Shown here: in pieces, positions 16,282 to 64,000 of the stretch
Layout of the letters: each line of letters starts with the position of its first letter
Numbering within the stretch: the first letter of the stretch is position 1
Assembly: GCA_951406725.2 (NCBI GenBank)
Contig: OX597822.1
Location: forward strand, 5,332,001 to 5,396,000
Source: Octopus vulgaris
Lineage: Eukaryota
DNA length: 64,000 bases
Direction: 5' to 3'
Notes under the pieces: generated by a model
Databases searched by the model: none
Told to the model about the DNA's origin: nothing
Seen by the model: the letters and a program-made list of their open reading frames with translations, nothing else
Program-made: the position numbers and the translations under genes

Positions 16282-19200
16282 AAGTTAGTTAGTTAGTTAG
16301 TTAATTTGGCTCAAAAGCAAATAGCAAGGCCATGTAGGGGGACATGGAGTTAAGTACAGGGTGGTGTTCATGTAAAGAGTTCAGGCCACTTGAGGTCCAG
16401 GGAGGCTTTGAACAAAGCGGTCGTCGGCATCTTCACCATCTCATCTGGCAGCTTGTTCCACGGATCCGCAACCCGGACGGAGAAAGCTCCTCTCCTTCGA
16501 TTGAGATGAAATCGTCGCAGGTAGAGCTTTTCGGAATGACCCCGCAGCCGACGCTCCGGAGCAGGAGTGAAGAACAGCTCTTTCGAGAGGTTACACTTCC
16601 CGCTTATGATGTTGTGGTCGAGAATGAGATCACCACGGCAGCGGCGTTTTTCAAGAGAATAAAGGTCGAGCGTCCTCAGCCTTTCTTCGTAGGACAAATT
16701 TTTGAGACCATGAACCAGGCGGGTAGCCAGCCTCTGGACTCTTTCGAGGTGCTGTATGTCTTTGAGGAGATAAGGAGAAGAGGCTTGAATCCCATACTCC
16801 AATATGGGTCTCACCAGCGTGACATAGAGTGGCAGGAATATGGCTGCTGTGAGCACTCCGAATGACCGTCGAATCAAAAACAGAATTCCGCGCGCTTTGT
16901 TGGCAGCATGGACGCACTGGGCCGAAGGCGAAAAGGAGAAATCCACCAAGATACCCAGGTCCTTTACCTGATCGGTCCTCTCCAGCAGCAGACGACCCGG
17001 CTCGAAATCAAGTTGAGTTGTAGGAGTAGAGCCGACAGGCAGATGACAGCACTTTGACACGTTCAGACACAGGTCCCAATCGTTAGACCACTTCCAAATT
17101 TGGTGGAGGCATCGACGAAGATCCTCTATACTACCGTGAGGAGCGACCAGTTTGATATCGTCGGCAAATAGAAGGGTGTGTTGCGTGAGGTCGTCGGGCA
17201 AGTCATTTATGAAGACTAAGAACAACAAGGGCCCAAGCACTGAACCTTTAACCATTAACTTGAACTTGGAAGGAGCGATCTGAGAGGAAGGCACCAACCC
17301 ATCGTACAATATCCGGATGGAAACTATATGCTTGAAGCTTGACAAGTAGTAGGCGGTGGTTTACCGAGTCAAAAGCTTTGGCAAAGTCCAATAAAACGAT
17401 GTCAACAGCATCAGTATCATCGAGGATGCGCGTCACCAATTCTTCCATTACTAGTAAGTTGGTCAAGCATGATCTCTTCGGCACGAAGCCGTGTTGGGAA
17501 TCAGTGATCGAGGCTGTGCTTAGGAGGTGGAGCATCATACTTTTCTTAAGGATGGTTTCGAACATCTTGCTGATTATTGATGTAAGGGAAACCGGTCGGT
17601 AGTTAAGCAGGTCTTCGCGGCTCCCTTTCTTGAAAATTGGGCAGATTATCGCTGTTCTCCAGTCTGCAGGTATAACACCCGTCGCCAATGACATATTGAA
17701 TAGTCGTGTTAAGGGCTCGCAGATTACCGGAGCCAACGCTTTGATAACCCATGGGTGTATGCCGTCAGGGCCGTGACCCTTGTTGACATCGAGGCCTTGA
17801 ATAGCACGTTTGACTTGGTCCCGCGTGATGATCAATCAAAGCATTGGAGGTACCGATCTATCAAATGGAGGGGGTTCACGACCATCATCTTGTTTGAAAA
17901 TAGTTGAAAAAGCCTCGGCAAATAATTGACTCTGTTGATAAGGGTCCTCAATCGATACGCCTGTTGAGTCTACCAATGTTACAATCTGGTTGTTCAAGCG
18001 GGAATTCCGCTGGACATAGGCAAAGAAGGTTTTTGGATTGCTACTGGCATTTGCCGCAATTTTGTATTCATAACTGAAGCGTTCTTTCTTTTCAATTTTC
18101 ACGGCTCGGTCTCGTTGAGTTTTGTACACCTCAAAAGCTGCAGTCGAATCCAGATTTTTGAATTCAGCCCAAGCAATATCTCTGAGTCGACGTTCTCGTT
18201 TAACCTTCTTCGTCACCCAGGGCTTGTGTTTCTTCCTCTTGGGAAGTCCAACGGGAACTGCCTGGTCAGTCAAACAGATTACATATGCTTTGAGGGATGA
18301 CCATAGTTCGTCAACTGAGGACGACGTCATCAGGGAACGCCAGTCCAGAAGCGTGGAAGCCTCGGTTAGAATTTCAAGATTAATTGCAGAGAAGACTCTA
18401 CGTGGCAGCGAAGTAATCGTGGGCGTGGAAAAAGTTGTGTGCATGACGAACTTCAGAACCGCATGATCACTCTTGGCAAGAGGGGCGCACACAGATATGT
18501 CTGACACTGATCTTGGATAGCGGGAGAATACCAGATCTAGCATAGATGGCTGCTGCCCAGACCGATGCCTTGTCGGATATTCAACATGTTGCGATAGAAA
18601 ACAATCTTCAGCCACGTCAAGAAGGGCCTGGCCGAACCGGGAAGATGTTGTACAAATTGATGCGGGCCAATCGATCATGGGAGCGTTGAAGTCGCCTAGT
18701 ACCAAGCAGTCATGCGAAGCTGAAACGAATCTTATCGCCTCGAGTAGATGAGCATCGTCCTGGGGGTTGGCTAGAGGCGGCCTGTAGACAGCCAACACGG
18801 GCAGGCAAAACTCAGATAGGCTCAGCTTGCAATAGACGGCAACGAATTTGGTTGTAGGTTGAGCATTTGTGGGTAGAATACCGCAGGACGGTTTGTGCTC
18901 AGACTTAACATACACAGCAACACCTCCACCTCGCCTTTTTCCTCTGTCACATCTGAAAAGGACGTAGCCCTGCAGGTGGATCTCTGAGTCCTTTACTGCT
19001 GGAGTCAGCCAAGTCTCGGTGATAGCTATCACATCAGGGGAGTCGCGTAGGGCCAGTGTAAATAGTTCACTGAACTTTGGGAATAAGGAGCACGAGTTGG
19101 TGTAGACGATGCTGAGCTGTGAAGTCTGAGGGGCGGGAGTTGGGGAACAAGCAGAATAAAGGGCATCAGAGATAGCATCGTTGACGGGGGTATCAACTTC

Positions 19201-19390
19201 ACTTCGATTTGCCCTCACATCACTTTCCCTGTCAGCACTACAGCATGGGACCAGAGGTAGGACTTGATTATCTGTCCATCTTGGATTCGTAAACCCTTCT
19301 CTCCCATTTGTTTCCTCATCTTTAGCTCGGATATCAGGTTCCTCCGGCGAATTCTCTCTCTTAGTGAGTATCTTAGTAAGATACAAGCTT
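16282..19390 (-). mobile_element. CR1-type LINE, ORF2 essentially complete but inactivated
   Basis: GC-rich block with APE endonuclease (IAITETWL, GGGVAVYV, LGDFN, SDH), RT (NYRPVSLTS, QHGF, LDFAKAFDSV, GSVLGPLLF, FADD) and CR1-type C-terminus (LRGH..KL..FSVRV..WNKLP); short 3' UTR and (CTAA)n tail at 16282-16304. Confidence 0.93.
16368..19386 (-). pseudogene. LINE ORF2 (AP endonuclease + reverse transcriptase), disrupted
   Basis: ORFs 17836-19386 and 17248-17835 are in the same frame, separated by a single TGA. At ~17250 a deletion removes the expected SGVPQ segment and shifts frame into the 16368-17345 ORF. Confidence 0.9.
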
Positions 19391-19447
19391 TGTCAATGTA
19401 TTGAGTTGTCTGGAAAGCTCATGTCAATTTTAAATTTTGTCAATGTA

Positions 19448-20706: not shown

Positions 20707-20790
20707 TACAATGGCTTGGATTATATTTTGGGGAAAGATTTAAATAAAACAACATATGTGAAATATTCTTGTAGTTAAAGAAACAATACA

Positions 20791-21445
20791 GGCGCAGGAG
20801 TGGCTGTGTGGTAAGTAGCTTGCTAACCAACCACATGGTTCCGGGTTCAGTCCCACTGCGTGGCATCTTGGGCAAGTGTCTTCTGCTATAGCCCCGGGCT
20901 GACCAATGCCTTGTGAGTGGATTTGGTAGACGGAAACTGAAAGAAGCCTGTCGTATATATATATATATATATATATATTTATTGGCTTGATTGGCTTGAT
21001 TTAATTTAATCAGGTTAGTTTACCATTAAACAATAGATGAAACGGTGCATCATATAAGAAATTACAGGGTAAATGTTTTTTTTTAAATTTTCTCCTGGTT
21101 TGCGGAATTGATGTTATTTTGCGGTTGAAGCTTTGGCTGTTATTTCTAGTGGGTGAATGGCCTATTATGGCCATTCCTTGATTGTGATATATATATATAT
21201 ATGTATATATATATATGTATGTGTGTGTGTTTGTGTGTCTGTGTTTGTCCCCCTAGCATTGCTTGACAACCGATGCTGGTGTGTTTACGTCCCCGTCACT
21301 TAGCGGTTCGGCAAAAGAGACCGATAGAATAAGTACTGGGCTTACAAAAGAATAAGTCCCGGGGTTGATTTGCTCAACAAAAGGCGGTGCTCCAGCATGG
21401 CCGCAGTCAAATGACTGAAACAAGTAAAAGAGTAAAGAGAGTAAG
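20791..21445 (+). mobile_element. SINE family A with ~210-bp insert in its (TA)n
   Basis: Head GGCGCAGGAGTGGCTGTGTGGTAAG...GGTTCAGTCCC; tail CAGTCAAATGACTGAAACAAGTAAAAGAG; insert at 20978-21186. Confidence 0.92.
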
Positions 21446-29440: not shown

Positions 29441-29934
29441 AAATGGTGATGATGATGATGGTAGTGGTAGTAATGGTGTTGTTATTGCCGTTGTATATCC
29501 CAGACCAACCCTGGCTGAGCAGAATTATGGTCAAAGACATTATCCACATGCCTCTCTTTTCCTAAGATAGTATGGCATGGTTTCAAGGAACATGGCTGCT
29601 ATTTCTAGCAGGTTGAACTACTGCATAGATTTTACTTCATTGGTTCAGCAGTGATGATGGTGATGGTTGTAGAAGTGATGATGGTGATGGTTGTAGTGGT
29701 AGTGGTTGTCACAGTGATAGTCATAATGACACTGGTATCATTGGTGGTGTTGGTAGAGCTGGTGATGATAATGGTGGAATTAGTGGCAATGATGCTGTTT
29801 GGTGTGGGTTGTGAAGTGATGTTTGTTATGATGATGTTATGATGGTGACGAGGCAAGAAGAGTGGAAATAGTTAACAAAAAAAAAAACTTAGAAAAAAAG
29901 AAAACAAAACACAAGAGAAATGAAAATCAACAAC

Positions 29935-30350
29935 CAGGAGTGGCTGTTTGGTAAGTAGCTTGCTAACCAACCACATGGTTCCGGGTTCAGTCCCACTGCG
30001 TGGCATCTTGGGCAAGTGTCTTCTGCTATAGCCCCGGGCCGACCAATGCCTTGTAAGTGGATTTGGTAGACGGAAACTGAAAGAAGCCTGTCGTATATAT
30101 GTATATATATATAAGTGTGTGTGAATATGTTTGTGTGTCTGTGTTTGTTCCCCTAGCATTGCTTGACAACCGATGCTGGTGTGTTTACGTCCCCGTCACT
30201 TAGCGGTTCGGCAAAAGAGACCGATAGAATAAGTACTGGGCTTACAAAGAATAAGTCCCGGGGTCGATTTGCTCGACTAAAGGCGGTGCTCCAGCATGGC
30301 CGCAGTCAAATGACTGAAACAAGTAAAAAGAAAAAAAGAGAAAAAGAGTA
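29935..30350 (+). mobile_element. SINE family A
   Basis: Near-identical to 20791-21445 without the insert. Confidence 0.92.
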
Positions 30351-33372: not shown

Positions 33373-35820
33373 AAACTAGAGATAAGTACTGGACCATGCA
33401 GACCAGAAGGATTCATAAAACAAGTAGTTTTAGAGAGCAACCTGTAGGGAGAGTTAAGCTGATGCAAGTTCATTAACATTAATTTGCTTCATTTTTACGT
33501 CCATGTTTTCCATGGTAGCATGGATTAGATGACTATATTATTGAGATATTAGTTTATAGCTGAATGCCATTCATATTACTGACCCTTACCTCTTTTTCAA
33601 GTAAGGGATTACTTATACCACATGTCTTCAGGGGTGCAAAGGCAGCAGAAGACTTGTTGACAAGAGAACTGGTGTGGGTAGTTCAGGGATTTTCGGAGAA
33701 ACATAAATGTGAACAAACACATATATGCATGCATGAGCACACACACACTTTTTTCTCTCTCTTTCTCTCTCTCACACACTGTATTTCTCTCTCTCTCTCT
33801 CTCTCTCTCATACACACTATATTTCTCTCTCCTCCTCCTCTCTCTCTCACACACACAAAGATGTATAGAAAATAAGATTTCAGTTTCTGTCTACCAAATC
33901 CACTCACAAGGTTTGGGAATAAAAAATATTAAAGATGTAAAGAGACTGTTGTCACCAGCCAAGCATTCCTTGTTACCCCTTGTGTTAGGTTCAAACTGGC
34001 CAGATTCAGCTTCTTACACTTACCCTACAATGCCATTCTAGAAATATACAATTACATCATCCTAAATCTTGAAGCTATGAGATAATGCACGATTAATTCA
34101 AAGCAATGTTTATAAACAAGCATTATATTTGGCAGAGTTATTTGAATGCTAAAAGGTTAAACAAACAGGGGAAAAGCAATGACATAGTTACATCTCAACA
34201 AACTGGGTATGGATAATAGTTTAATCCCAATCTGAAGTCATTTGACTTCATGAAAAGCACAAACATAATTTCCTTTAACCATTTAGAATTTAAACAAACC
34301 TTATCCAGCCCAAATATTCAATGTTTTGTGTTCAAACCAGCTAGATCTGGCTTCTTACACCTACCCAAAAATATCATTCTAAAAATAAATAATTATATTA
34401 TTAAAATCTTGAAATTATGAGATAATGCATAATTAATTCAAATCAATGTGAACAAATAAGCTTTACATTTAAGAGTAATGCTAAAAGGCTAATTTAGAAA
34501 CTTCATGAGAGAACTTCAAGTAAAATACAATTATGCAACAAAAATGAAAATAGGTGACCATAACAAAAAAAACTACACACACATACACACACACCTAAAA
34601 GAAGGCCGTTTGATTGTGTTGCAAAGATTCACTCTCTACTTCACTACAACAAATGGATTACAGACGAGAAGGTTTATTTCTTTATTTTTTTGTTGTTCTA
34701 CTACTGCTGCAGCAACGGTGCTTGCTCCTCTTCATCATTATCATCATCACAACACTTGACTCCTGTTTTCCATGCTGGAAGGCTTGACAGGAATTGGTAA
34801 GGCCAGAGGCCATACCACATTGCATAGTCTGTTTCGGCTTGGTTTCTACCATTCTTCACACCAACCACTCCAGAGTGCACTGGGTGCTTTTTACATGGCA
34901 CAAGCACCCACACCAGTGCTTTTTACAGGGCACCTTGATTTTAGAATCTCACTTTGGTTGTGGTGGACAGGTCTTCTTGAGTACAGCAATATGTCACATC
35001 TCTCCTCTTATTTAGCAAACTGCATTTAACATTCACCTCATTCCACCTGAGACACCCATCTCTGACTATGTCCCATGCCTAATCATTCCTTTCTAAAATT
35101 ATAGTTTTTTTTGTTTTTTTTTTACCAACTCACACTTTTCCAACAGAAGAAACCAGAACTGAATATTGACATTAATTGATTTCACCCAGTCTAGGAGGGC
35201 CTACAAAAGTCATGAATACTGTTTCTTCACCTCGGATGAATTAGCAGAAAAGCTATTACTATTACTACTGTGACAACAACGTATTAAAATTATTTGGTCA
35301 TATTCAAGTCTGGAGCTGCAGGCAACATTTACAATGTTTCCTGCAGATCTTGTTGCCATGGAATTCTCCTTTACAAAGCTGACAACACTCACCAGTATCT
35401 ACTTTGAATAATAATGTCTTCTTAACTTATGTAATTTAACTCTTCCAAATTTAGATAAGAGTCAAGATATAGCTGTACCTATAGTAACACCAGAAGAGGT
35501 AGTACCATTAACAGTGGTTATAAACATTTCCAAAGGACATGAATTTGTAGTCAATTGAACACATCGTATAAATAACTGGGATGGTGGTGACAATGCACAC
35601 ACACAGACACATGTGTGTGTGTGCGTGCATGTGTAATAATATTAACTGAAGGAAATGGAAAATTGATTTGGTACTAGTCTTTATTCAATACAACGATCAT
35701 TTCAAGCCCTTCTACCAAACTGAACGTGCATTACTCAACACACTAATTGACATATACCCATTAGTCTACAAAATTAAATGTGTGTGTGTGTATATATATA
35801 TACATATATATATATATATA

Positions 35821-36265
35821 ATAATAAATATTAGGGAATAAATCCAAACTTACAGGGAAAAATCAGATTTAGGATTGAATCCAATTTTATAGTAAAATAT
35901 TATATTATATTAAATTAGAGACAAAACCACTATTAGGCAAATCAAACAATGAAAGACTTAAGCCAATACATAAATTAATTTATATTATTTAAATATGTAA
36001 CAATTATTAAAAAATATAATTAATATCCACTACGATCATTTCCTGTCTGCTGTCATCAAATTTTTGAGTTGCAGTCATTCATCAAGTGGTTTCAAAATCT
36101 TTCTTGGCAAGTTTTAAACAATAGGAAACGATCGTAGTGGATATTAATTATATTTTTTAATAATTGTTACATATTTAAATAATATAAATTAATTTATGTA
36201 TTGGCTTAAGTCTTTCATTGTTTGATTTGCCTAATAGTGGTTTTGTCTCTAATTTAATATAATAT
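35821..36265. mobile_element. Fold-back element in (TA)n carrying a hammerhead-like motif (copy 1)
   Basis: Inverted arms 35908-36044 and 36123-36259 (~137 bp, one mismatch seen); leader nearly identical to 48987-49068. Confidence 0.85.
36026..36090 (-). ncRNA. Type I hammerhead ribozyme motif, degenerate core
   Basis: Minus strand ACCAC-TTGATGA-ATGACTGC...GCAGACAG-GAAA-TGATCG-TA-GTGGA; C3 reads U and stem II is extended. Confidence 0.6.
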
Positions 36266-36294
36266 TATATATATATATATACACACACGCACGT

Positions 36295-39440: not shown

Positions 39441-39629
39441 ATATCAGTTGAATTGTAGAATCGGTTAATGGAAATTGTATGGAAGCCCATCATATGAGTA
39501 TGTGTGTTTGTCTCTGTACTAGTAAACAAGAATGTTGACCTCTTATATCTTGTCACCACCTGAATAAATCAGAGATGCAATGTTTACAATATGTCCACTT
39601 GCTTTGTACTTTCAAAAATAAATGAAATA

Positions 39630-39794
39630 GGCGCAGAAGTGGCTGTGTGGTAAGTGGCTTGTTTACCAACCACATGGTTCTGGGTTCAGTCCCACTGCAT
39701 GGCACCTTGGGCAAGTGTTTTCTACTATAGCCTCGGGCCGATCAAAGCCTTGTTAGTGGATTTGGTAGATGGAAACTGAAAGAAGCCTGTCGTA

Positions 39795-39846
<52 letters not shown>

Positions 39847-40055
39847 TGTGTGTGTTTGTCCCCCTAGCATTGCTTGACAACCAACGCTGGTGTGTTTATG
39901 TCCCCGTTACTTAGCGGTTTGGCAAAAGAGACCAATAGAATAAGTACTGGGCTTACAAAAAAGAATAAGTCCCAGGGTCGAGTTGCTCGATTAAAGGTGG
40001 TGCTCCAGCATGGCCGCAGTCAAATGACTGAAACAAGTAAAAGAGTAAAAGAGTA
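39630..40055 (+). mobile_element. SINE family A
   Basis: Full head, internal (TA)n/(TG)n and (GTAAAAGA)n tail. Confidence 0.92.
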
Positions 40056-42214: not shown

Positions 42215-43350
42215 GTTGTTGTATTTAGGAATGGTCATGTTGCCAGTTTAGCCAATAAAAACACACGCACTATATATTTGGTGTTAATTTGCATCAGCTC
42301 AGCTTTATTTATTTTTTACATTAATCTTAATCTTATTTCGCCCAGAGTTCTTTCGTCACACTTCTGTGACCTCATCAGTGATCCTTTGCTTTCTTCTTTC
42401 TTATTTGTGTGTCTCTCTTTACTAACAGTCAGCCATTTTGTATTTTGTATTCCTATTATATGTGTCTTCATTTGCGCATGCATATATCTCTATGTGTGTC
42501 TATGTTTAGTTAGTGGGGGGAGGGCCTGTAATATTTGTATCTCCTGTTTATATACGTTCGTGTAATTTGTTTTTGTTTATTTTATTCGTTCATGTGTTTA
42601 CACCTACTTATTATTATTATTATTATTATTATTTTTAATGTATATAGTTATTTACTTCCATTTGTTTATTTATCTGTGTATCTTATTTTTGTTTTTAGTT
42701 TTGTTTGTATTGTTACCAGTTTATAGGGATCTTATTCTGTCATATGTTGTGGTGTGTTGGGAAGGGGACTGCTAGTGTTCCATTCCAGTTTCCTATTCAG
42801 GCTCGGTTTATCTTCTATTATGTGTGTAGCTTCTGTAATTTGTCTAATTGTTGTTCTATGTGTGGACAAGATTTTAACTTCTATGTTGTTGAGTGAGCCC
42901 CCGTGTTCCTGCTCGGCGTGCAGGTACAGAACCGATGAGCTCTGTACTTCCTTAAGTTCTCTCCAATGTACATTTAGCTGCTGTCCTATGCTCCATGCTG
43001 TCTCCCCCACATACGTTGTTGTCTTGTTACTGCATCGTCCCTCTGTACATCTCATACTATAGACTACATTTCTGGCTTTTCAGTTTGTTTGTGGGCTAAA
43101 TCTACACACAGTACAGTTCCTATCTGTACAGGGGGTTCTACTAAAAGGGTAAGTTCTATCGATTAGGGATTTGATAGGGTTTCCTGGCCTTTCAACAACC
43201 TTAATCCTTAACTTAAGCTTGGCTAGGGCCCTTCTAAAGCGGTACGCCAGTTCACCTCTAGGAGTGGTGTCGACGAACATGACACTCTGGTATTTGTGGC
43301 TATCATACCAAGAGTTGGCCTTCCCTATTTTCTTCTTAGTCCTTTCAAAA
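42215..43350 (-). mobile_element. Penelope-like retroelement, 3' portion
   Basis: Minus-strand ORFs 43080-43280 (FVDTTPRGELA...KVVERPG...CTDRNCTVC, Cys-rich linker) and 42732-43055 (C..C..YVGETA...H...HAEQEH...EATHI...LNRKLEW, GIY-YIG endonuclease); ends at a (TA)n tract. Confidence 0.88.
42339..42383 (-). ncRNA. Minimal type I hammerhead ribozyme motif in Penelope 3' region
   Basis: Minus strand GATCA-CTGATGA-G-GTCAC-AGAAGT-GTGAC-GAAA-GAAC-TC-TGGGC: intact core and 5-bp stem II, weak stems I and III; same strand as the endonuclease ORF. Confidence 0.7.
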
Positions 43351-48986: not shown

Positions 48987-49383
48987 GTAATAAATATTAA
49001 GGAATAAATCCAAATTTACAGGGAAAAATCAGATTTAGGATTGAATCCAATTTTATAGTAAAATATTATATTATATTAATTAGAGACAAAACAACTATTA
49101 TGCAAATCAAACAAAGAAAGACTTAAGCCAATACATAAAAAATTTTATATAAATTAAATATAATTAAAATAACCACTACGATCGTTTCGTGTCAGCACTT
49201 CTATGAGACATTCTTCAGGTGGTTTCAAAACCTTGAAAGAATGTCTCATAGAAGTGCTGACACGAAACGATCGTAGTGGTTATTTTAATTATATTTAATT
49301 TATATAAAATTTTTTATGTATTGGCTTAAGTCTTTCTTTGTTTGATTTGCATAATAGTGGTTTTGTCTCTAATTAATATAATA
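48987..49383. mobile_element. Fold-back element in (TA)n carrying a hammerhead ribozyme (copy 2)
   Basis: Arms 49069-49215 and 49237-49383 (147 bp, one mismatch seen), 21-nt spacer, (TA)n on both sides. Confidence 0.9.
49172..49223 (-). ncRNA. Minimal type I hammerhead ribozyme
   Basis: Minus strand ACCAC-CTGAAGA-ATGTC-TCATAGAAGTGCT-GACAC-GAAA-CGATCG-TA-GTGGT: perfect stem I, full CUGANGA/GAAA core, palindromic stem III (ACGATCGT), GUA cleavage triplet; A.C mismatch at the base of stem II. Confidence 0.85.
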
Positions 49384-49617
49384 CATATATATATATATAT
49401 ATATATCTTCCTAAATGAACAACTAAGGACCAAGCCAATTACAATGTAGTGTAAATGTTCCAACTTGCTTTTCATCCTTGCAAATGTTAAGAGCCTGAAA
49501 TATTAAAATCTTGTTAAATTACAATCACATCAGAAACAAATATAGTAATTGTTAATAATTGGAGTATTAAATGGCACATGGCCCATCATACTGAGACATG
49601 ATAAAAAGAACACTAGT

Positions 49618-50033
49618 CACAGGAGCGGCTGTGTGGTAAGTAGCTTGCTTATCAACCACATGGTTCCGGGTTCAGTCCCATGGTGTGGCACCTTGGGCAA
49701 GTGTCTTCTATAGCCTCGGGCCGACCAAAGCCTTGTGATTGGATTTGGTAGACGGAAACTGGAAGAAGCCCATCGTATATGTGTAAATATGTATATGTAT
49801 GTGTGTGTATATGTTTGCGTGTCAGTGTTTGTCCCTCCAACATCACTTGACAACCGATGCAGGTGTATTTACACCCCCATAACTTAGCGGTTTGGCAAAA
49901 GAGACCGATACAATAAGTACTAGGCTTACAAAGAATAAGTCCTGGGGTTGATTTGCTCGACTAAAGGCAATGCTGCAGTATGGCCGCAGTCAAATGACTG
50001 AAACAAGTAAAAGAGTAAAAGAGAAAGAGAGTA
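49618..50033 (+). mobile_element. SINE family A
   Basis: Full-length match with (GTAAAAGA)n tail. Confidence 0.92.
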
Positions 50034-53832: not shown

Positions 53833-54934
53833 CTACACACACACACACCTACACACATATATACACATACAAATACAGACACTGGTTCACATGTTTTATA
53901 AAAGTATGAAACCAGAGATGGGTGAGAAAATAGGATGTTATGCTATTAGTACCTTTCCCAAGAGCATTAATGATCTGAATGAATAAAATAAAATAGATCC
54001 TAGTAATAATAAAATCAGTTTGAAGGTAGAGAGCATTATAATGTTTAGATCTATGGTGTCAAAAGTTACCATTTAGATGTTAGTGACTTCACTAACTAAT
54101 TGAAGCAGCTAAATAATCCAATAACCTACTTTGTGAAATGCTAAGAGCAATGCATTTCATAGAATTCCTAAGACAATGTAAGCTAATTAGACAGGAGTTT
54201 TATATATTGATATTTGTTCTAATATAACAGTTCACAAATGCTTTTTTACCCTTTGAAAAGCTGAGATTGAGTTTAAAATCCCAGGAAAATGTCTAAATAA
54301 TGTCAGTAGCTAGGAAAGGAAAGAAGCTTTATTTATGGTTTACTCTAGCATTTAAATTACTCTGTCAAATATGATGCTTATTTATTCCCATTGTTTTAAA
54401 TTAATCATGCAGCTTCAAGATTTCAATGGTGTGAGAGGCTAGATCTGGCCAGTTTGAGCATAAAACATTTGAGCCAGATATGGCCAGTTTAAATGCTAAA
54501 AGCTTAATAGGCATTATTCATCACAGAATCAAACATAGGTTTTATTACTGTTAGTACCAAATACCAATGGCTTAGTTGGCAAATTAGTAGGTCTAAATGC
54601 TAGATAACCGACAGTTAATGTTAACTTGGGGTTATTATTTTAAAGCAAGTGTAAGAATAACATTACAACATTTACTGATTGTGGAACTTGATACTGAATG
54701 AGATCTTAAGATGAATAAGCCTGTCACAGTCAAGACAAACTTTGACAAACAGATATGAATGCACATTTTAATATTTCATATCACAATCAATAAAAGACAT
54801 ACCAGTAATATTTTCATACTTGGACTTATTTCAATTTACAGCTGCATTGCAAATCAAGAGAGTTAGTTGTTGTGGGAGTAACAAAAATAAGTCAGATTAG
54901 TGTTGCAGATAGAGCATTTGATAAAATATTTCAA

Positions 54935-55084
54935 GGCGCAGGAGTGGCTGTGTGGTAAGTAGCTTGCTTACCAACCACATGGTCCCGGGTTCAGTCCCAC
55001 CTTGGGCAAGTATCTTCTACTATAGCCTCAGGCCGACCAAACCCTTGTGAGTGGATTTGGTAGATAGAAACTGGAAGAAGCCCA

Positions 55085-55125
<41 letters not shown>

Positions 55126-55365
55126 TATGTGTGTGTGTGTTTATATGTTTATGTGTCTGTTTGTCCCCCCAGCATCGCTTGACAACTGATGTTGGTGTGT
55201 TTACGTCCCCCGTAACTTAGTGGTTCGGCAAAAGAGATCAACAGAATGAGTACTAGGCTTACAAAGAATAAGCTCTGGGGTTGATTTGCTTGACTATAAA
55301 GGCAGTGCTCCATCATGGCTGCAGTCAAATGACTGAAACAAGTAAAAGAGAGAGAGTAAAGAGAG
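54935..55365 (+). mobile_element. SINE family A, followed directly by a family C 3' end
   Basis: Head at 54935; tail abuts family C sequence 55365-55590. Confidence 0.9.
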
Positions 55366-61779: not shown

Positions 61780-62920
61780 AAGGAAAATAGGACAAGGTAG
61801 AAAATGCTAAAATAATTTTATCATGAAGAACATTCTAGTACTGGTTTCAGTCTTTGCGACTTCTTCAACTTAGAAGTTGAAGAAGTCGCAAAGACAATTA
61901 AAGTGTAGAAAAATAAAATGAAATGTTTCTTTTTTCTAAATATTTCCATAGTTTTCAAATGCAATGGTTTAATAGTATTGTTAGAATTTTAACCAAGATC
62001 ATTAAAATCTCAAAACTATAAGAATGTGAATAATATGCATTACATTTGACAGTGATCTAAATGCTAAAGGATTAAGACTAACTTCTCTTCCTCCAACAAG
62101 TCATAAAATATCTAGTTTTCAGGTCCACCATTTTCAACTGAATTATTACCCACAAATGTAAGCATATGCATACATATATAGACTTTCACATAAATGTAGA
62201 TGAAAATGCTGACTGAAAAATAAACTTTGATCCAGTGATACCAGTGCAATATCTAAATGTCATTTCATGCAGATGTGTAACGTTTGAAATTTATAGTGGA
62301 AGGGGAAACTGCTTTGTCTCATTTCTTTAACGATACAAACCTGAAATATTTCATAGTTTTCAAATACATGGAGCATTTTCCTTTTTTTTTTCTTTCTGTC
62401 TGTTTCTCTCCCTCTCTCTCTCTTTTACTTTTGTGAAGGCTCCGCAGGTAGGTAGTAGCAGGTCTGAAGGAATATTTAATATAAGGGATATGGGTTCTTT
62501 GTTTTGCTGCTTAAACAATCAAAACCAAGAACCCACATTCCCCATATTAAATATTCCTTCAGACCTGCTACAACCTACCTGCTGAGCCTTCACAAAAGTA
62601 AAAGAGAGAGACAGAAAAAAGAAAAATGTCCCACGTATTTGGAAACTATGGAAATATTTTTTTTTAATATTTCATTTAATTTTTCCACAATTTAATTGTT
62701 TGTCATGCTTTACTTAAGTTGAAAAGTTGCAAAGTCGGAAACCGGAACTAAAATGTTCTCATGATAAATATTTTAGTACCGGTTTCAGTCTTTGCAACTT
62801 CTTCTGAAAAACAATTAAATTGTGGAAAAATGAAATGAAATGTTCTTTTAAAAATATTTCCATAGTTTTCAAATGCAATGGTTTGGTAGTATTGTCAGAA
62901 TGTTAACCAGGATCATTAAA
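61780..62920. mobile_element. Complex of overlapping palindromes with hammerhead-like motifs
   Basis: 22-bp-arm hairpin 61850-61895; imperfect palindromes 62344-62659 and 62638-62875; direct repeat 61897-62005 / 62814-62920; begins after (TA)n. Confidence 0.75.
61830..61875 (-). ncRNA. Minimal hammerhead motif, second family (degenerate)
   Basis: Minus strand TCTAAG-TTGAAGA-AGTC-GCAAA-GACT-GAAA-CCAG-TA-CTAGA; the sister copy at 62770-62806 has the palindromic ACCGGT stem III. Confidence 0.6.
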
Positions 62921-63751
62921 TATCACATTAAATATGTTATTTCACTGATTCTTGAAAGGATAAAAGGCAAAGCTGACCTGGGCAAGATTTGATCTCAGTG
63001 TTGATAGTAAGAACAAATACAGTGAATCTTTTTGTTCAATGCTCTAATAACTCTGCCAATTTGCAGCTTTAAAAATAGGAGCTCATGTGGGACAAACATG
63101 AGATCACTAGAGACCACTCAAATATATTTTCCTTCACACATTCTCTGTGAAAGTTAAACTGATGGATTATTAGCTACAGAATTATGAATTGAAAGCCTGG
63201 TAATTATTGTGTGTTGTAGATAATAGCTTAATTAAAAAAAGATGCACTCCTACCACACCTTCTCCTACAGTATCCAATGAGCAATTATTTAAACAGTATT
63301 TAACTCTCTAAGAAAGATGCAATACGAAAACACCACCAAACCAGGACAAATAACAACAAATCTGCAACTTACTGTAAAAACTGCCAATGAAAATTAGTAA
63401 GACACATTACTTTTAAGATATGTTTGTGTAAAGTGTAACTATCCATGTAAAAGTCTCAGGTTTGGTGGGAAGAAACAATGAAATCTGCTAGACAATATCA
63501 TTAACAATTAAAGTTTAAACAGAATGTTAGTTCAACATATTCAAATCTCCCCTGATCTGATCACTGCTCAGAAAGTGACTGAGTCACTATTCTAGTATAT
63601 AAAGCTACTGACAGAAGTAAAATATTTGAATATTTGATGCAAATAGTAGTTCCCATTGCAAAAGGATCCGGTGAAGTAATTCAAATGAACAGATAAAAGC
63701 AAATGAAATCTCAGGTGTTGTATTGTCAAACACTCAGTAAAAATATTTGTA

Positions 63752-64000
63752 GGCGCAGGAGTGGCTGTGTGGTAAGTAGCTTGCTTACCAGCCACATGGT
63801 TCCGGGTTCAGTCCCACTGCGTGGCATCTTGGGCAACTGTCTCCTGCTATAGCCCCGGGCCGACCAATGCCTTGTGAGTGGATTTGGTAGACAGAAACTG
63901 AAAGAAGCCTGTCGTATATATGTATATATATATATGTGTGTATGTGTTTGTGTGTCTGTGTTTGTCCCCCTAGCATTGCTTGACAACTGATGCTGGTGTG
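63752..64000 (+). mobile_element. SINE family A, cut by window end
   Basis: Head GGCGCAGGAGTGGCTGTGTGGTAAG and body match to 20791. Confidence 0.92.

What the first reader, a model, noticed from the sequence alone, without database searches (positions are those of the whole stretch)
35821..36265. Second family member: arms match within a copy but differ between copies, and stem II is swapped
Seen: the leader and outer arm closely match the 49-kb copy, but the AT-rich segment before CCACTACGATC and the whole stem II differ (TGACTGC..GCAGACA, long, versus TGTC..GACA). Stem I, GAAA, GATCG and the TA site are kept. Each copy's two arms are ~99% identical to one another, and the inversion breakpoint differs (just before GAAA here, within the CUGA box there). 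Inference: the inverted arm is created anew at each insertion from that copy's own template, and the ribozyme fold is kept while stem II sequence is free, which is covariation-type evidence for function.
Basis: partly seen in the sequence, partly recalled or inferred. Interest (0 to 1): 0.72.

Follow-up and report, generated by a model that had tools for sequence, protein, structure and literature searches.

The report
Spliced Penelope retroelement stub, head-to-head
This 445-base hairpin-shaped insert is two short end-pieces of an abundant Penelope-like jumping gene joined head to head in a TA repeat, with an intron missing exactly at its splice signals, so it was likely copied twice from one spliced RNA, and the sister copies suggest that the element's predicted self-cutting RNA often sets where copying stops.

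Summary
Observation confirmed. Each copy's arms differ at 1 of about 145 bases, the two window copies are 77% alike, and breakpoints vary. The insert is a 5'-truncated, head-to-head stub of a Hydra-clade Penelope-like retroelement: about 2,000 copies, and parents with intact 821-862 aa RT + GIY-YIG frames. This layout (hammerhead, inverted copy, tail, TA target) is published. The stem II 'swap' is a subfamily difference, and I found no significant covariation. The sister copies add mechanism. 668 exact matches read across a GT-AG intron against 226 that keep it. Spliced arms stop near one point upstream of the donor. The two arms of a pair always share subfamily and splice state. None of 77 inverted arms carries the tail, and either arm can be the longer one. 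Arm ends pile up just 3' of the predicted ribozyme cut, and both arms of a pair respect that limit. Most likely one sense RNA is reverse-transcribed twice, from two start sites, once from each target strand. The scan's notes report this same reading for other copies in this genome. Verdict: new member of a known kind, with testable mechanistic clues.

The parts
35791..35820 (.). (TA)n target tract, left side
   Evidence: Sequence; 97 of 100 tail ends and 76 of 77 inverted ends abut (TA)n
35821..35896 (-). Tail (about 76 nt, edges +/-5 nt because they merge with TA): the part between the two fixed 3' ends; in full-length parents it runs on to the ORF start 54-59 nt further
   Evidence: present on one arm only
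35897..36122 (-). Tail-bearing arm: sense copy of the element's terminal repeat (spliced 5' leader)
36025..36091 (-). Type I hammerhead motif: stem I 36091-36086 with 36030-36027; core 36085-36079 (C3 mutated to T at 36085); stem II 36077-36044; GAAA 36042-36039; palindromic stem III; predicted cut between 36031 and 36030
   Evidence: Sequence; alignment and pair counts; activity not tested
36098..36099 (-). Exon-exon joint (+/-1-2 nt): the 650-1,100 nt GT-AG intron of the parent is absent here
   Evidence: Parent L141 donor and acceptor; intron lengths
36099..36122 (-). 24 nt of exon 1, ending 3 nt short of the TTCAT motif where spliced copies stop (inferred transcription start)
36123..36270 (+). 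Tail-less inverted arm, starting 14 nt upstream of the predicted cut site and ending at the second fixed 3' end
36271..36281 (.). (TA)n target tract, right side
   Evidence: Sequence
48987..49383 (-). Second copy (B), another subfamily: tail-bearing arm about 48987-49236 on minus, intact hammerhead core 49171-49224, spliced-type upstream sequence, tail-less arm 49237-49383 on plus

Best explanation
The insert is a dead-end, head-to-head stub of the terminal repeat of a Hydra-clade Penelope-like retroelement, likely made when the element's protein cut a (TA)n repeat on both strands and reverse-transcribed one spliced sense RNA twice. Shown: parent elements with RT + GIY-YIG frames carry this repeat at both ends; this copy lacks the parent's intron at the splice signals; the two arms end at two fixed 3' positions 76 nt apart; arms of a pair share subfamily and splice state. 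Inferred: transcription starts near a TTCAT motif about 27 nt before the intron donor; the two fixed ends are two RT start sites in the 5' leader, one used by each target strand; each cDNA runs until it falls off or reaches the RNA's 5' end (the cap, or the ribozyme cut); the two cDNA ends are then joined, often through 0-6 nt of overlap. Copies started in the 5' leader of the spliced mRNA can only be short; full-length copies would come from starts in the downstream, unspliced repeat of a read-through transcript.
For: Parent: a 745-aa open frame contiguous with intron, ribozyme and arm; repeat-ORF-repeat copies with 821-862 aa frames; Hydra motifs; Atlas neighbours carry GIY-YIG and HTH_animal at 0.95-0.98. 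Splicing: 668 exact exon-exon matches vs 226 intron-keeping ones for the same downstream letters; 83 spliced arms, none matching more than 10 nt past TTCAT by ungapped scoring (one about 16 nt by eye, with an indel); 11 of 11 repeats downstream of an ORF keep the intron. Two syntheses: 77 of the first 100 tail-bearing copies have an inverted arm and 0 of 77 has a tail; tail-less arm longer in 19, tail arm longer in 19, near equal 23, unclear 8 of 69. One RNA: 21 classifiable pairs all concordant (14 spliced/spliced, 7 unspliced/unspliced; 7 more not classifiable); 13 of 13 pairs among 148 listed sites concordant (partly the same loci); both arms of L204 share a rarer splice from a distal donor; at most 2 of 115 pairs have 3 or more subfamily-type differences. 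Cut site: 37 of 117 arms end within 13 nt 3' of it vs 13 of 130 and 13 of 80 in the neighbouring bins; 0 of 22 pairs with an end there have a partner beyond +20, 30% expected.
Against: No cleavage, transcription start or cDNA was observed. A perfect hairpin followed by random central deletion would also give arms of either length. Subfamily concordance is expected if one source locus dominates in a cell, without one RNA molecule. The cut-site bin was chosen after seeing the data, only 5 of its 37 ends lie exactly at the cut, and a stall at the folded ribozyme would peak in the same bin; other bins also lean below the shuffled mean (2 of 12, 1 of 9, 1 of 11). 3 of 12 ribozyme-anchored pairs have no tail on either arm, so 'one of each' is not strict. 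In vitro, the anole element showed no strand difference in start sites, did not need cleavage, and no RNA reads ended at the cut (PMC11167929). Copying one RNA twice needs strand displacement, which is inferred. The unbiased sample is the first 100 of 1,997 sites, all on one contig. Pfam gave no RT or GIY-YIG hit.
Confidence: 0.68

Rival explanations
1. Same element, but each arm is copied from its own RNA molecule held by a dimeric protein; the arms match because both RNAs come from the locus active in that cell.
For: Arms are no closer to each other than to the nearest sister copy; L020 has 3 subfamily-type differences between arms; the palindromic stem III suits RNA dimers (PMC4209133, passages); an earlier scan note reports mixed arms in another family (e1-9536500).
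Against: No spliced/unspliced mix in 21 classifiable pairs although both forms are common; both arms of L204 share a rare splice; arm ends are linked at the cut site.
Confidence: 0.17
2. Fold-back (self-priming): one cDNA folds on itself and is copied into a hairpin; later central deletions make the arms unequal. Arkhipova et al. 2013 proposed self-priming, on an antisense template.
For: 23 of 69 pairs are near-symmetric and several have no spacer; short overlaps at junctions; explains splice and subfamily concordance directly.
Against: In 19 of 69 pairs, plus 4 with almost no tail arm, the tail-less arm holds sequence that the tail arm lacks, including pairs with 0-1 arm mismatches; needs secondary deletion in about a third of copies. 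The antisense-template version cannot give precise sense GT-AG intron loss.
Confidence: 0.12
3. A non-autonomous unit of its own (MITE, or tandem non-LTR retrozyme) whose stem II was exchanged between copies.
For: Non-coding, short, ribozyme-bearing, high copy, TA target.
Against: Ends are asymmetric and breakpoints vary; the sequence is contiguous with RT + GIY-YIG frames; no tandem arrays seen in the loci read; stem II tracks subfamily.
Confidence: 0.03

Closest known systems
Hydra clade of C-terminal-endonuclease Penelope-like elements, incl. Hydra-1_Obim (Craig et al. 2021, PMC8557442: passages, section 11, supplement part 2 and found passages)
   Same: DKT, W-K motif, CxCx5C linker, CxxC and CxH in the endonuclease, canonical type I hammerhead near the 3' end, (TA)n target; inverted 5'-truncated copy and tail are their Fig. 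2 layout. By eye the protein is colinear with the listed Hydra proteins.
   Different: A different family from Hydra-1_Obim (other ribozyme and protein letters); unit about 5-6.5 kb with a long intron-bearing repeat rather than under 3 kb; tail about 76 nt rather than 30-40; most short copies lack the intron, whereas the paper stresses intron retention.
Poseidon of Anolis carolinensis (Frangieh et al. 2024, PMC11167929: parts 1-2 of 4 and passages)
   Same: Two internal RT start sites bracketing the tail; both target strands cut and extended; hammerhead in the repeat.
   Different: Start sites there lie inside the ORF, here about 55-60 and 135 nt before the ATG; no strand bias in vitro, whereas here no pair has two tails; no sign of ends at the ribozyme cut there.
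Penelope of Drosophila virilis and Adineta vaga Pen2a (PMC2377424, PMC3846280, PMC4209133: passages)
   Same: Start site and 5'-UTR intron in the terminal repeat; intron ending next to helix I; inverted repeat with optional tail; opposite-strand hammerhead pairs 100-700 bp apart already noted in Schistosoma.
   Different: Those copies are described as keeping the intron, and antisense self-priming was proposed; here three quarters of the matched sites are spliced in the sense direction.
Animal non-LTR retrozymes (bioRxiv 10.64898/2026.07.22.740005: part 1 of 5)
   Same: Short, non-coding, type I hammerhead, related to PLE repeats.
   Different: Defined as tandem units; this is a head-to-head stub of an autonomous element.

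Membership tests
Hydra-clade Penelope-like element | Single ORF with RT followed by C-terminal GIY-YIG endonuclease | tested here: met
   821-862 aa frames with YRDD and YIGST motifs; Atlas neighbours with GIY-YIG/HTH_animal; Pfam itself gave no hit
Hydra-clade Penelope-like element | DKT in place of DKG; RWK motif near the N terminus | tested here: met
   SDKTR in 5 of 5 frames; RIKWK (K for R) in 4 of 4 full-length frames
Hydra-clade Penelope-like element | CxCx5C linker; CxxC and CxH flanking conserved E and N | tested here: met
   CxCx5C and CYLCSNE in 5 of 5; CRH in 4 of 5
Hydra-clade Penelope-like element | Canonical hammerhead in the terminal repeat; (TA)n insertion | tested here: met
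   145 of 150 ribozyme-independent anchored arms keep CTGA(T/A)GA; 97 of 100 in (TA)n
Hydra-clade Penelope-like element | Placement inside the clade in an RT phylogeny | not tested
   Published Hydra proteins were seen only as text in the supplement; compared by eye
EN+ PLE insertion layout | Partial tandem repeats, inverted 5'-truncated copy, tail at one end | tested here: met
Active hammerhead ribozyme | Intact core and stems | tested here: inconclusive
   Met in the family and in copy B; copy A has C3 to T, as do 4 of 64 close sisters
Active hammerhead ribozyme | Significant covariation in stems | tested here: not met
   81% of cells paired vs 20-57% when slid, but covariation score 0.080 vs 0.085 shuffled
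Active hammerhead ribozyme | Self-cleavage | not testable with these tools
   Only indirect: pile-up of ends at the predicted cut
MITE | Fixed symmetric terminal inverted repeats and fixed length | tested here: not met
   One end has a tail, shared arm 10-319 nt
Non-LTR retrozyme | Tandem non-coding units each with a hammerhead | tested here: not met
   Units are head-to-head or solo, or flank an ORF; no genome-wide search for arrays was run

The most novel reading that the evidence does not exclude
The thousands of stubs are a genomic record of the Penelope-like insertion cycle: a dimeric protein copies one sense RNA twice, from two start sites onto the two target strands, and the element's hammerhead really cuts that RNA in the germ line, so copies stop at either the cap or the cut. 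Intron retention in PLEs would then only reflect that spliced leaders yield dead-end stubs, and the ribozyme would decap the element's own mRNA leader.
Probability: 0.4. Interest if true: 0.7.

Novelty: new member of a known kind. Interest (0 to 1): 0.45.

Why it matters
How Penelope-like elements make their inverted ends, why they seem to keep introns and what their hammerheads do are stated as open in the papers read (PMC8557442, PMC3846280, PMC4209133, PMC11167929). This family gives countable evidence on all three: sense spliced templates are used in bulk, a simple fold-back does not fit, and ends pile up at the predicted ribozyme cut. Intact parent frames make it testable in vitro. The single insert itself is an ordinary, probably inert stub.

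Tried and rejected
Rfam: no match in the window. Pfam and PDB sequence search: no informative hit for the parent protein. Single-strand folding gave no support for the monomer hammerhead fold. The first pair count used a mis-registered structure and is discarded (corrected). The first exon-1 mapping caught only one donor type and is superseded. Covariation as evidence: rejected; the one double change in stem III (G-C to A-U, 5 of 19 rows) is also what CpG decay of a palindrome gives, and the third stem II pair is broken in 7 of 20 rows. 'Private template' from arm identity: rejected; 26 of 115 pairs share an allele seen in no other arm, 3 of them through poor coverage, which is weak support only. 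One spliced pair 153 nt apart was checked as a possible breach of the upstream limit: its spacer is unrelated filler. Sequencing runs: no RNA holder listed; two runs guessed to be RNA hold a contig skipping the 700-nt GT..AG intron, not counted because spliced genomic copies could supply it. 10 of 160 segments were dropped as false upstream anchors; 4 of 166 arms were dropped for poor alignment. No host gene was recognised among the window's long ORFs.

Full report
1. Observation. The window holds two related inserts, A (35821-36270) and B (48987-49383), each an asymmetric palindrome in (TA)n. Arms differ at 1 of 143 bases in A and 1 of 147 in B; A and B are 77% alike with gaps. Both carry a type I hammerhead motif on the minus strand. 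A's complete ribozyme has C3 changed to T and an A.A mismatch in stem II. Rfam finds nothing and folding is uninformative.

2. The family. The genome (2.8 Gb, 227 contigs; earlier scan notes call it an octopus, which I did not test) has 1,997 exact matches to a tail word and 2,029 to the ribozyme pattern, controls 0. Walking upstream from long copies reached a 745-aa open frame contiguous with the repeat. A protein search found many intact frames; 20 fetched loci include repeat-ORF-repeat units with 821-862 aa frames, in which the tail runs on to the ATG 54-59 nt further. The motifs are those that Craig et al. 2021 give for the Hydra clade (PMC8557442, section 11; motifs). Their supplement lists an octopus member with a different ribozyme and protein, so this is another family. 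The inverted truncated copy, tail, hammerhead and (TA)n target are all in that paper, and opposite-strand hammerhead pairs were noted in PMC4209133.

3. Breakpoints vary: shared arm length 10-319 nt in 69 copies. Arms differ from their partner by a mean 1.7 per 90 nt, from the nearest other copy by 1.6, and from a typical copy by 7.5 (41 copies): the match is by subfamily. Stem II length follows subfamily (188 of 205, 44 expected). On 20 representatives, 81% of cells pair but covariation does not exceed the shuffles. With anchors that use no ribozyme letters, 145 of 150 arms keep CTGA(T/A)GA; position 7 splits 76 T to 74 A while the six other positions show 6 departures in all. That pattern fits a conserved hammerhead core (established knowledge: position 7 is the free one).

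4. An intron is missing. Parents have a 646-1,116 nt GT-AG intron ending about 9 nt before stem I. Copy A reads exon to exon. Genome-wide, 668 exact matches are spliced and 226 unspliced for the subfamilies covered by the two patterns. None of 83 spliced arms matches more than 10 nt (one about 16 by eye) past a TTCAT motif some 27 nt before the donor, while unspliced arms run for kilobases; I infer a transcription start there, as in D. virilis Penelope (PMC2377424 and PMC8557442 passages). All 11 repeats seen downstream of an ORF keep the intron. So spliced stubs are best read as copies of the mRNA leader. This argues against the antisense-template proposal in PMC3846280 for these copies.

5. 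How the inversion forms. Of the first 100 tail-bearing sites listed (all on one contig), 77 have an inverted arm within 1.8 kb, none with a tail; 23 are solo. In 12 ribozyme-anchored pairs, 9 have one tail, 3 none, 0 two. The tail-less arm is the longer in 19 of 69, the tail arm in 19, near equal in 23, unclear in 8, which a plain fold-back cannot give without later deletion. Splice state agrees in all 21 classifiable pairs of 28 and in 13 of 13 pairs among listed sites (overlapping sets); both arms of L204 share a rarer splice. At most 2 of 115 pairs show 3 or more subfamily-type differences. Of 53 junctions, 33 show 0-15 nt of overlap (30 of them 0-6 nt) and 20 leave an unassigned gap, from filler or poor references. 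The anole protein cuts and extends both strands and starts at two internal sites bracketing the tail (PMC11167929). I infer two cDNAs from one RNA, joined end to end.

6. The ribozyme. Arm ends pile up in the 14 nt just 3' of the predicted cut: 37 of 117 at risk vs 13 of 130 and 13 of 80 next door (Fisher p 3e-5 and 0.02; bin chosen after looking), with 5 exactly at the cut, and a second pile at the inferred start. When one arm ends there, the partner never passes +20 (0 of 22; 30% expected, 0 of 20,000 shuffles; other bins 2 of 12, 1 of 9, 4 of 12, 1 of 11). This fits a physical RNA end shared by both arms. A stall at the folded ribozyme is not excluded. Copy A ran through its ribozyme to near the start; 4 of 64 close sisters share its C3-to-T change, which may or may not have been inherited.

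7. Novelty. The kind and the layout are known; the family appears new. Four literature searches returned no paper describing bulk spliced PLE copies or ends at the ribozyme cut; the library lacks most subscription papers, and Arkhipova 2003 and 2006 were not seen. The scan's own unreviewed notes give the same reading for other copies in this genome, seen after my analysis; they are not independent support. Interest 0.45.

Noticed in passing
window 62412-62614: A third palindrome (95-nt arms, 92% complementary, 13-nt spacer) unrelated to this family; no ribozyme motif seen by eye
   Followed up: no
window 16368-19392 (-): LINE-like retrotransposon in three long frames (AP-endonuclease-like and RT-like by eye)
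   Followed up: no
window 20777-21428, 29917-30328, 39616-40039, 49602-50012, 54921-55210, 63738-63981: Dispersed SINE-like repeat family with an internal (TA)n tract
   Followed up: no
window 42732-43079 (-): 115-aa frame with a GIY-YIG-like YVGET motif, by eye a fragment of another Penelope-like family
   Followed up: no
L204 (G000:C1:65362600-65364700): Both arms join a distal donor in the 3' untranslated part to the acceptor before the ribozyme, about 2 kb skipped: a second splice form
   Followed up: partly
L141 2470-2560 and 7250-7420: One ORF-bearing copy has a spliced, truncated upstream repeat and an unspliced downstream repeat
   Followed up: partly
L098 frame, residues about 420-520: Asparagine-rich stretch between RT and linker, like the N-rich inserts described for Adineta Penelope elements (PMC3846280 passages)
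   Followed up: no
L040 886-970 and L106 5391-5480: A different hammerhead-bearing repeat with a 60-nt stem II region, also head-to-head in L106
   Followed up: no
L238 660-772; L074, L213: Some junctions hold 100-170 nt of unrelated filler between the arms
   Followed up: partly
G000 C9, C19, C20, C28: 4 of 64 close sisters of copy A share the same C3-to-T core change, with no other letter at that place
   Followed up: partly
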